Source: a virus
Lineage: Duplodnaviria; Heunggongvirae; Uroviricota; Caudoviricetes
Direction: 5' to 3' (one strand)
Length of the DNA stretch: 9,616 nt
Virus record (IMG/VR): IMGVR_UViG_2636415712_000002
The notes below the pieces were generated by a model that did no database searches, had not been told where the DNA came from, and saw nothing but the letters and a program-made list of their open reading frames with translations. Below, in pieces: positions 3,613 through 5,202 of the stretch (positions within the stretch are counted from its first letter, which is position 1; each line of letters begins with the position of its first letter). Position numbers and translations under genes: made by a program.

Positions 3613-5202
3613 AACGAACGCCTGTCCTGATTGATGTGAACGGCGTTCCGCTTCGTGAGAGTCTCAGCTACAACGGAGGCGGCGCAGGATTTGGCGGGCA
3701 AATGGCAGAGTGGTTACCACCGGCGCAGAGTGCCGATGCGGCCCTGTTGCCTGCATTGCGTCTGGGGAATGCCCGGGCAGATGATCTGGTGCGCAATAAC
3801 GGTATCGCGGCTAATGCGGTGGCCCTGCATAAGGATCATATCGTCGGGCACATGTTTCTTATCAGCTACCGTCTGAACTGGCGTTGGCTGGGGATGCGGG
3901 AGACCACGGCAAAAAGTTTTGTCGGGGAGGTGGAAGCAGCCTGGTCGGAATACGCAGAAGGAATGTTTGGCGAGATCGACGTGGAAGGGAAACGCACGTT
4001 TACGGAATTTATCCGTGAAGGGGTGGGCGTGCATGCCTTTAACGGCGAAATCTTTGTGCAGCCGGTCTGGGATACGGAAACCACGCAGTTATTCCGTACG
4101 CGTTTTAAAGCCGTGAGTCCGAAACGGGTGGACACGCCAGGACACGGTATGGGGAACCACTTTCTGCGGGCCGGGGTTGAGGTCGATCGGTATGGGCGGG
4201 CGATTGCGTACCATATCTGTGAGGATGATTTTCCGTTCTCTGGTGCCGGACGCTGGGAGCGGATCCCGCGTGAGCTTCCCACCGGGCGTCCGGCCATGCT
4301 GCATATTTTTGAGCCGGTGGAGGACGGGCAGACCCGTGGGGCCAATCAGTTTTACAGCGTAATGGAGCGGATGAAGATGCTGGACTCCCTGCAGGCCACG
4401 CAGCTTCAGTCGGCCATTGTGAAGGCGATGTATGCAGCCACAATCGAAAGTGAACTTGATACCGAAAAGGCATTTGAATATATCGCGGGGGCACCGCAAG
4501 GTCAGCAGGATAATCCGCTTATTAATATTCTGGAGAAGTTCACCCGCTGGTATGACACGAATAACGTGACGCTGGGCGGTGTTAAAATTCCGCACCTTTT
4601 TTCCTGGCGATGCGCTGAACCTGCAGACAGCGCAGGATTCAGACAATGGATTTTCGGCGCTTGAACAGGCGCTGCTGCGGTATATTGCAGCCGGTCTTGG
4701 CGTTTCCTACGAACAGTTGTCCCGTGATTACTCGAAGGTCAGTTACTCAAGTGCCCGTGCCTCCGCCAATGAGTCGTGGCGCTATTTTATGGGGCGGCGA
4801 AAATTTATTGCGGCCCGGCTGGCCACGCAGATGTTTTCCTGCTGGCTGGAAGAGGCGCTTCTTCGGGGGATTATTCGTCCGCCACGGGCGCGTTTTGATT
4901 TTTACCAGGCGCGTTCAGCCTGGTCACGGGCAGAGTGGATTGGCTCCGGAAGAATGGCCATTGACGGGCTCAAGGAGGTCCAGGAATCGGTGATGCGCAT
5001 TGAGGCCGGACTGAGCACGTATGAGAAAGAACTGGCACTGATGGGCGAAGATTATCAGGACATTTTCCGCCAGCAGGTCAGGGAATCCGCAGAGCGCGAA
5101 AAAGCCGGACTCTCACGTCCGGTGTGGATAGCCCAGGCGTATCAGCAGCAGATAGCGGAGAGTCGCAGGCCGGAAGAGGAGACAACATCACGTGAGACGT
5201 AA
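3609..5202 (+). pseudogene. B: Portal protein (lambda gpB homolog) interrupted by a +1 frameshift at a T6 run (4597..4602); pseudogene or sequencing error
   Basis: Track ORFs 3609..4664 and 4579..5202 are the N- and C-terminal parts of one lambda-B-like protein in different frames. First frame matches lambda through ...LGGVKIPHL (lambda LGGAKVPHL); second frame resumes at PGDALNLQTAQDSDNGFS (lambda PGDSLNLQTAQDTDNGYS). Removing one T from ccTTTTTTcc gives a continuous ~531 aa protein (lambda gpB 533 aa). Confidence 0.85.

What the first reader, a model, noticed from the sequence alone, without database searches (positions are those of the whole stretch)
4590..4610. +1 frameshift in the portal gene at a T6 homopolymer
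The lambda-B-like reading frame changes at ccTTTTTTcc (T run 4597..4602). With five Ts the protein reads ...GGVKIPHL-F-PGDALNLQTAQDSDNGFS..., collinear with lambda ...GGAKVPHLMPGDSLNLQTAQDTDNGYS...; with six Ts the first frame terminates at 4664 after about 20 unrelated codons. Together with the nu1 disruption this fits a decaying prophage, but a homopolymer is also a classic sequencing or assembly error site. Programmed frameshifting is unlikely because portal proteins are not known to use it and the site lacks a canonical slippery heptamer with a hungry or stop A-site codon.
Basis: seen in the sequence. Interest (0 to 1): 0.45.

Follow-up and report, generated by a model that had tools for sequence, protein, structure and literature searches.

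The report
Fixed frameshift in Shigella prophage portal
An extra T splits the portal gene of a dead lambda-like prophage; the same break is in Shigella flexneri genomes generally, so it is an ordinary, already annotated pseudogene and neither a sequencing error nor programmed recoding.

Summary
Window 4597-4602 is a run of six Ts inside a lambda-family portal gene. The N-terminal 331 codons are in the frame of 3609. The last 199 codons are in the +1 frame and run to 5202. The first frame stops at 4662-4664 after 20 unrelated codons.

Removing one T gives a 530-aa protein 100% identical to the intact portal of the closest E. coli prophage, which has T5. It aligns end to end with lambda portal protein B.

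This is not an assembly error. The exact 351-aa truncated product, out-of-frame tail included, is on at least 1000 contigs (2587 collection blocks). The four accessions listed include the protein of S. flexneri 2a 301. All 12 Shigella-type loci I fetched have T6 while differing by up to 12 substitutions over 5.1 kb.

In the same lineage an IS600 replaces about 2.5 kb, including the first 200 nt of nu1 and presumably cos, so the prophage was probably already unable to package DNA.

Nothing supports recoding. Intact relatives have T5 or T4. The next codon is an ordinary UCC, there is no Shine-Dalgarno-like element upstream, and the downstream RNA folds no better than shuffles. Six Ts is also short of the roughly nine needed for transcriptional slippage.

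Verdict: a real, lineage-fixed pseudogenising insertion in a decaying prophage. It is known and of low interest.

The parts
1..1217 (+). IS600 (IS3 family) copy that runs off the left end of the contig. The transposase OrfB lies within ORF 233-1174.
   Evidence: 99.3-99.5% identity to annotated IS600 copies in E. coli genomes. Pfam rve, HTH_21, rve_2 and rve_3 match ORF 233-1174.
1218..1525 (+). 3' remnant of the terminase small subunit gene (nu1). The first ~200 nt and everything upstream are replaced by IS600.
   Evidence: Pfam Phage_Nu1 matches profile positions 85-163 of 164 only. Homology with the intact prophage starts at window 1217 = L001 2809, where nu1 spans L001 2608-3117. In strain L012, L001 268-2808 is absent and IS600 takes its place.
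1497..3425 (+). Terminase large subunit gene (gpA-like), apparently intact in this window.
   Evidence: Pfam GpA_ATPase and GpA_nuclease. Called as 642 aa in the loci closest to the window: L007, L008, L011, L013, L014 and L015. There is no indel against L002 in this stretch.
3409..3612 (+). gpW-like head-tail joining gene, intact.
   Evidence: Pfam gpW, E = 5e-22. Annotated as such in L001 and L002.
3609..4664 (+). Portal gene, upstream reading frame: 331 authentic codons followed by 20 out-of-frame codons and a TGA stop at 4662-4664.
   Evidence: Translation. PF05136 profile positions 2-288. The exact 351-aa product is found on at least 1000 contigs, with S. flexneri names given by the sources.
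4597..4602 (+). T6 run, the site of the 1-nt insertion. The ancestral state is T5 (codons CAC CTT TTT CCT = H L F P).
   Evidence: Sequence. T5 in L001 and L002, T4 in L003. T6 in all 12 Shigella-type loci.
4603..5202 (+). Portal gene, downstream part in the +1 frame: 199 authentic codons (PGDALNLQ... to ...TSRET) and a stop at 5200-5202.
   Evidence: Translation. PF05136 profile positions 288-354. The repaired ORF is identical to WP_046880246.1.
5192..6544 (+). S49 protease/scaffold gene (gpC/Nu3-like). It overlaps the end of the portal gene and carries a 153-nt in-frame deletion specific to this contig (450 aa instead of 501).
   Evidence: Pfam Peptidase_S49. The homologue is 501 aa in all related loci. 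Deletion junction and repeats. The 450-aa protein is on one contig only, of 9616 bp.

Best explanation
The T6 run is a genuine single-base insertion (T5 to T6), most likely from replication slippage. It arose in the portal gene of a phage-21/lambda-like prophage in an ancestor of the Shigella flexneri strains sampled and has been inherited vertically since. It breaks the portal ORF after codon 331 of 530, leaving a 351-aa fragment with a 20-residue nonsense tail and a C-terminal 199-codon remnant that normal translation does not reach. The prophage was, or also became, defective through an IS600-associated deletion that removed the 5' end of nu1 and the region upstream of it, where cos lies in lambda-type phages. 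The portal frameshift is therefore one step in ordinary prophage decay in an IS-rich, pseudogene-rich pathogen. Shown: the insertion, its presence across many independent assemblies, the intact T5 state in the nearest relatives, and the IS600 replacement. Inferred: the slippage mechanism, the order of events, loss of cos (not located directly) and loss of function (no particle assay).
For: (1) The T6 run and the frame change sit exactly at the join of the two Pfam portal matches.
(2) Removing one T gives a 530-aa protein 100% identical to the annotated intact portal of E. coli CFSAN029787. Only 2 nucleotide differences, both synonymous, separate the genes. That exact intact protein is on 106 contigs.
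(3) The five closest E. coli complete genomes (99.7-99.8%) have a match 1 nt shorter, and none of the 10 records matched by the 80-nt query has T6. The 16 phage records matched over the whole gene each have a match 1593 nt long, one base shorter than the 1594-nt query.
(4) The exact 351-aa product, nonsense tail included, is on at least 1000 contigs in 2587 collection blocks. The sources name it 'head-tail preconnector gp5' of S. flexneri, one of them for 2a str. 301. Contigs include AE014073.1, CM001474.1, CP007037.1, LR213452.1 and others.
(5) T6 is in 12 of 12 Shigella-type loci, which differ from each other by 0-12 substitutions and other indels over 5.1 kb. The run length is therefore stable and inherited, not assembly noise.
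(6) In the same lineage IS600 replaces L001 268-2808, which includes nu1 codons 1 to about 67.
(7) S. flexneri genomes carry about 200-250 pseudogenes and about 300 IS copies (PMC1550401, Table 1).
Against: No reads for this particular contig could be inspected. All assemblies sampled by the look-up of encoding contigs were selected for having the truncated protein, so they cannot show S. flexneri strains that keep T5. Apart from the deletion in the protease/scaffold gene, the remaining head genes and the tail genes within the window (gpD-, gpE-, FI-, FII-, Z-like and the start of U) are still open. That leaves room for retained function, although the lineage is also young enough for this to be neutral. 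Loss of function was not tested experimentally.
Confidence: 0.93

Rival explanations
1. Sequencing or assembly error: the true sequence is T5 and the gene is intact in the source strain.
For: Homopolymers are typical error sites. The window is a short draft contig of 9616 bp, and it carries a contig-specific 153-nt deletion in a repeated part of the neighbouring gene that could itself be an assembly collapse.
Against: The identical T6, and the identical 351-aa product with its out-of-frame tail, are on at least 1000 contigs in 2587 blocks and in ten fetched assemblies from different submitters. T6 is in 12 of 12 loci that differ at other positions. The window is identical to complete genome LR213452.1 (L008) across 1217-6330. 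From my own knowledge, the 2a 301 and 2457T (AE014073) genomes were Sanger shotgun projects, for which a 6-base run is not error-prone.
Confidence: 0.02
2. Recoding: full-length portal is made from the T6 allele. This could be by +1 ribosomal slippage of tRNA-Phe or tRNA-Leu on CUU-UUU-U, or by RNA polymerase slippage that deletes one U.
For: A +1 slip of P-site tRNA-Phe from UUU (4599-4601) to UUU (4600-4602) would restore exactly ...HLFPGD... (read from the sequence). S. flexneri does use transcriptional slippage in mxiE (PMC1088944). Some background slippage on a U6 run cannot be excluded.
Against: The site is not conserved as T6. Every intact relative has T5 or T4 with a single ORF. T6 is seen only in a lineage whose prophage also lacks the 5' end of nu1, so no selective purpose is apparent. 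The codon following is UCC, not a stop or a rare codon, and the 20 nt upstream (GGTGTTAAAATTCCGCACC) contain no Shine-Dalgarno-like element at prfB-type spacing. The downstream 100 nt fold no better than shuffles (z = -0.99). A canonical -1 shift would enter the wrong frame, which has stops. Selection against transcriptional slippage becomes evident at runs of about 9 A or T in many bacteria (PMC1088944), and this run has 6.
Confidence: 0.02
3. Exaptation: the 351-aa truncated portal fragment, or the retained head-gene cluster, has been kept because it is useful. For example, it might poison portal assembly of superinfecting lambdoid phages.
For: The truncated allele is fixed across the S. flexneri strains sampled. 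Most downstream head genes and the tail genes within the window remain open. The repaired portal sequence has no amino-acid change relative to an intact E. coli copy.
Against: The strains differ by only 0-12 substitutions in 5.1 kb, so the lack of further decay is what a young lineage would show under neutrality. Decay is in fact continuing: there are terminase indels in some strains, the 153-nt protease/scaffold deletion here, and shortened FII- and Z-like genes in L015. No expression or phenotype data exist.
Confidence: 0.03

Closest known systems
Portal protein B of bacteriophage lambda (PDB 8k38 and related entries) and the portal gene of phage 21 and its relatives
   Same: The repaired 530-aa product aligns over residues 5-527 with lambda gpB (E = 6e-214). 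It belongs to Pfam PF05136. The gene is 93% identical in nucleotides to the portal genes of phage 21, ev017, 4A7 and others, and has the same neighbours: terminase, gpW, portal, S49 protease/scaffold, decoration protein and major capsid protein.
   Different: Here the ORF is broken by a 1-nt insertion after codon 331, so no full-length portal is encoded.
Frameshifted prophage pseudogenes in Shigella genomes (IS-driven and point-mutation-driven genome decay)
   Same: A single-base indel at a short homopolymer, combined with an IS600 insertion and deletion in the same prophage, fixed in the lineage. This matches the high pseudogene and IS load reported for S. flexneri (PMC1550401). The two ORF halves are already deposited as separate proteins (AAN42336.1 and others).
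   Different: Nothing substantive. This is an instance of that class.
Programmed +1 frameshifting (E. coli prfB type) and programmed transcriptional slippage (S. flexneri mxiE, Thermus dnaX, IS elements)
   Same: Two overlapping frames of one protein are joined at a run of U/T on which re-pairing in the +1 frame is possible.
   Different: No conservation of the shift-requiring allele, no slow A-site codon, no upstream Shine-Dalgarno stimulator, and a run of only 6 where the described slippage sites have about 9.

Membership tests
Lambda-family phage portal protein (Pfam PF05136) | Significant match to the family profile above the curated cut-off | tested here: met
   228.7 bits (N-terminal part) and 80.4 bits (C-terminal part) against a cut-off of 32.9. 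The profile positions 2-288 and 288-354 are contiguous.
Lambda-family phage portal protein (Pfam PF05136) | Collinear with an experimentally solved family member over the full length | tested here: met
   The repaired protein aligns at residues 5-527 with lambda portal protein B residues 7-530, E = 6e-214.
Lambda-family phage portal protein (Pfam PF05136) | Encoded as one uninterrupted ORF, that is, a functional gene | tested here: not met
   The frame changes at 4597-4602 and there is a stop at 4662-4664. It is therefore a pseudogene of this family, not a functional member.
Defective (cryptic) lambdoid prophage | Loss or disruption of genes or sites essential for particle production | tested here: met
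   The portal gene is frameshifted. The first ~200 nt of nu1 and ~2.3 kb upstream are replaced by IS600. Loss of cos is inferred from its lambda-type position just upstream of nu1; it was not located directly.
Defective (cryptic) lambdoid prophage | Inability to produce infectious particles on induction | not testable with these tools
   Needs an induction and plaque or electron-microscopy assay.
Sequencing/assembly artefact at a homopolymer | The variant is restricted to one assembly or platform and absent from independent assemblies of the same lineage | tested here: not met
   The same T6 and the same 351-aa product occur on at least 1000 contigs in 2587 blocks and in ten fetched assemblies. 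T6 is in 12 of 12 loci.
Programmed +1 ribosomal frameshift site (prfB type) | The shift-requiring arrangement is conserved among homologues | tested here: not met
   Intact relatives have T5 or T4 and a single ORF.
Programmed +1 ribosomal frameshift site (prfB type) | A slow-to-decode A-site codon (stop or rare) after the slippery codon, and a Shine-Dalgarno-like stimulator about 3 nt upstream | tested here: not met
   The A-site codon is UCC. The upstream sequence AAAAUUCCGCAC has no Shine-Dalgarno-like element. The criteria are taken from established knowledge of prfB.
Programmed +1 ribosomal frameshift site (prfB type) | A full-length trans-frame product is detectable | not testable with these tools
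   Needs proteomics or a reporter assay.
Programmed transcriptional slippage site (mxiE / dnaX / IS type) | A homopolymeric A or T run long enough for efficient RNA polymerase slippage (about 9 in many bacteria) | tested here: not met
   The run has 6 bases. The threshold is from PMC1088944.

The most novel reading that the evidence does not exclude
The T6 allele is not simply dead. Either low-level +1 slippage on CUU-UUU-U still supplies a little full-length portal, or the fixed 351-aa N-terminal fragment acts as a dominant-negative portal subunit that interferes with superinfecting phage-21/lambda-type phages. In that case S. flexneri would have kept the broken gene as a defence.
Probability: 0.04. 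Interest if true: 0.55.

Novelty: already known. Interest (0 to 1): 0.07.

Why it matters
It matters little beyond correct annotation. The two portal ORFs in S. flexneri genomes (deposited as 'head-tail preconnector gp5', 351 aa, plus a C-terminal ORF called at anything from 69 to 207 aa) should be read as one frameshifted pseudogene of a defective prophage. The region also shows why a homopolymer frameshift need not be dismissed as an error when it is shared across independent assemblies. It is a clean lineage marker as well: T6 together with the IS600/nu1 junction marks all the S. flexneri-type genomes examined here.

Tried and rejected
(1) I looked for T6 among complete E. coli genomes with an 80-nt query. 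None of the 10 matching records has it; the five closest have T5.

(2) I scanned one genome per species for T5 or T6 in this exact context. The only two matches, S. flexneri SFBU1023 and 'E. coli' ECMA0423 (4.44 Mb), both have T6.

(3) I tested for a downstream RNA structure that might stimulate frameshifting. The result was z = -0.99, not different from shuffles.

(4) I considered a -1 frameshift. It enters the third frame, which has stops near the site, and the 0-frame codons CUU UUU UCC do not form an X XXY YYZ heptamer.

(5) I asked whether T6 runs are unusual in the window. They are not: 10 observed against 5.9 expected.

(6) I looked for proteomic evidence in a S. flexneri genome and proteome paper. 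Its two mentions of a portal concern prophage-prediction output, not this gene.

(7) Tandem Repeats Finder found nothing in the protease/scaffold gene. The diverged 150-nt repeats showed up only with the direct-repeat tool.

I did not use the large protein homology searches or structure prediction, because exact look-ups answered the question.

Full report
**1. The observation**

The window reads ...AAAATTCCGCACC TTTTTT CCTGGCGATGCG..., with the T run exactly at 4597-4602.

- ORF 3609-4664 encodes 351 aa. It ends ...TLGGVKIPHLF followed by SWRCAEPADSAGFRQWIFGA and a stop.
- The +1 frame reads ...FFPGDALNLQTAQDSDNGFSALEQ... through to a stop at 5200-5202.
- Pfam's lambda-family portal model PF05136 matches the first ORF at profile positions 2-288 and the second at 288-354. 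The two pieces are therefore halves of one gene, joined at the T run.
- Deleting one T gives a 530-aa ORF.
- A T6/A6 run is not unusual here: 10 in the window against 5.9 expected. The significant fact is the frame change at this one.

**2. Where the window comes from**

- Window 1-1217 is an IS600 copy (Pfam rve and HTH_21).
- The rest is a lambda-type head-gene cluster: a 3' fragment of nu1, terminase large subunit, gpW, portal, S49 protease/scaffold, decoration protein, major capsid protein, FI, FII, Z and U.
- The 450-aa protease encoded at 5192-6544 is known from one contig only. That contig is 9616 bp long and the protein is named as Shigella flexneri. The window is therefore an entire draft contig of an S. 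flexneri assembly.
- Across 1217-6330 it is identical to the complete genome LR213452.1 (L008).
- The portal gene is 93% identical to those of phage 21, ev017, 4A7 and related viable phages. In the 16 phage records matched over the whole gene the match is 1593 nt, one base shorter than the 1594-nt query.

**3. Real mutation or error?**

*Relatives with an intact gene*

- The closest complete E. coli genomes (99.7-99.8% over 2 kb) give a match one base shorter, and the portal is annotated as intact.
- Direct inspection shows T5 in L001 and L002, and T4 (CTTTTCCC) in the 95% relative L003.
- No E. coli complete genome matched by the 80-nt query has T6.
- The repaired window protein is 100% identical to the intact portal of CFSAN029787. 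The genes differ by two synonymous substitutions plus the extra T. That exact intact protein is on 106 contigs.

*Genomes that share the break*

- The exact 351-aa truncated product, nonsense tail included, is on at least 1000 contigs in 2587 blocks of the collection.
- It is deposited as AAN42336.1, AAP16213.1, ABF04804.1 and ADA73063.1. The sources name it 'head-tail preconnector gp5' of Shigella flexneri, one of them for 2a str. 301.
- Ten places were fetched, among them AE014073.1, CM001474.1, CP007037.1, CP026765.1, CP026792.1 and LR213452.1. Two more came from a pattern scan. All twelve have T6.
- These loci differ from each other by 0-12 substitutions and by other indels over 5.1 kb.

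The run length is therefore a stable, inherited character of a diversified lineage and not noise from one assembly. The assembly-error alternative is rejected.

One caveat applies. The ten places were selected for encoding the truncated protein, so they cannot reveal S. flexneri strains that may retain T5.

**4. Context: a decaying prophage**

- Homology with the intact E. coli prophage begins at window 1217 = L001 2809, which is 200 nt inside nu1.
- In strain L012 (AE014073.1) the sequence left of the IS600 corresponds to the lysis gene at L001 1-267. About 2.5 kb (L001 268-2808) has thus been replaced by IS600. That stretch holds a ParDE-type toxin-antitoxin pair, a KilA-N gene, two hypothetical genes and the first ~67 codons of nu1.
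- I infer that it also held cos, from the position of cos just upstream of nu1 in lambda-type phages. I did not locate cos directly.
- Decay continues independently in sublineages:
  - a 1-nt deletion near the end of the terminase gene in L004, L006, L009, L010 and L012;
  - two further terminase indels in L004 and L010;
  - shortened FII- and Z-like genes in L015;
  - a 153-nt in-frame deletion in the protease/scaffold gene in this window.
- S. flexneri genomes are reported to carry about 200-250 pseudogenes and about 300 IS copies (PMC1550401).

**5. Could it be recoding?**

A +1 slip of peptidyl-tRNA-Phe from UUU (4599-4601) to UUU (4600-4602) would restore HLFPGD exactly, so the idea is mechanistically conceivable. 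The tests speak against it:

- The shift-requiring allele is not conserved outside the defective lineage.
- The next codon is UCC, and no Shine-Dalgarno-like element lies upstream.
- The 100 nt downstream fold no better than shuffles, z = -0.99.
- A -1 shift enters the wrong frame.
[quoted passage not shown] Six Ts is short of that.

Background slippage at a very low level cannot be excluded without an experiment.

**6. Comparison with what is known, and verdict**

- The gene is a pseudogene of the lambda-family portal (PF05136). Its closest solved relative is lambda gpB, and its closest viable phage genes at nucleotide level are those of phage 21 and its relatives.
- The feature is an ordinary frameshift pseudogene in a cryptic prophage. 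Its two halves have been in public annotation as separate proteins since the first S. flexneri genomes; the dating is from my own knowledge of those projects, while the accessions are.
- Novelty: already known. Interest: low.
- The only more interesting reading not excluded is retained function of the truncated fragment, or leaky restoration of the full-length protein. I put that at about 4%.

Noticed in passing
window 1-1217 and 1218-1525: An IS600 copy runs off the left contig end and abuts nu1 at about codon 68. Compared with the intact E. coli prophage, about 2.5 kb is missing at this junction: a ParDE-type toxin-antitoxin pair, a KilA-N gene, two hypothetical genes and the 5' 200 nt of nu1, presumably with cos. 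The IS arrangement left of this IS600 differs between S. flexneri strains (compare L006, L009 and L012 with L007, L008, L011 and L013 to L015).
   Followed up: partly
window ~6316-6345 (junction), within ORF 5192-6544: There is a 153-nt in-frame deletion in the S49 protease/scaffold (gpC/Nu3-like) gene, giving 450 aa instead of 501. The gene holds three diverged ~150-nt tandem repeats (spacing 150 and 153 nt; the two long copies are 73% alike). The window fuses repeat 2 to repeat 3 at TGAACAACTGGCGGC. The 450-aa protein is known from this single 9616-bp contig only, so it is either a strain-specific recombination or a short-read assembly collapse.
   Followed up: partly
L004/L005/L010 (window-equivalent 2094, 2222, 3334); L006/L009/L012 (3334): There are further indels in the terminase large subunit gene of some S. 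flexneri strains. A 1-nt deletion near the 3' end gives a 636-aa call instead of 642 aa. In the SFBU1023/ECMA0423 type, an added A and a lost T 128 nt apart split the gene into 201-aa and 397-aa calls. Whether the last two are real or long-read homopolymer errors was not examined.
   Followed up: no
L005/L010 = CP178302.1: A record titled 'Escherichia coli strain ECMA0423' (4.44 Mb) carries the S. flexneri-type IS600/nu1 junction and the T6 allele.
   Followed up: no
L002 10206-11745 (NZ_CP065615.1): The closest E. coli prophage with an intact T5 portal is decaying independently: it has an ISEc60 insertion and a head-tail joining (FII-like) gene annotated as frameshifted.
   Followed up: no
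window 8368-9614: The FI/FII/Z/U region is only 87% identical to the CFSAN029787 prophage (L001), whereas the head genes to its left are 96.6-98% identical. This is a mosaic boundary typical of lambdoid phages.
   Followed up: no
window 9409-9616 (right contig end): The contig ends inside the gpU-like tail gene (equivalent to L008 12159 of 11954-12355). No repeat is visible in the window to explain the break. Most blocks holding the truncated portal (2146 of 2587) have it on contigs of 5-10 kb, so short-read assemblies commonly break on both sides of this region.
   Followed up: no
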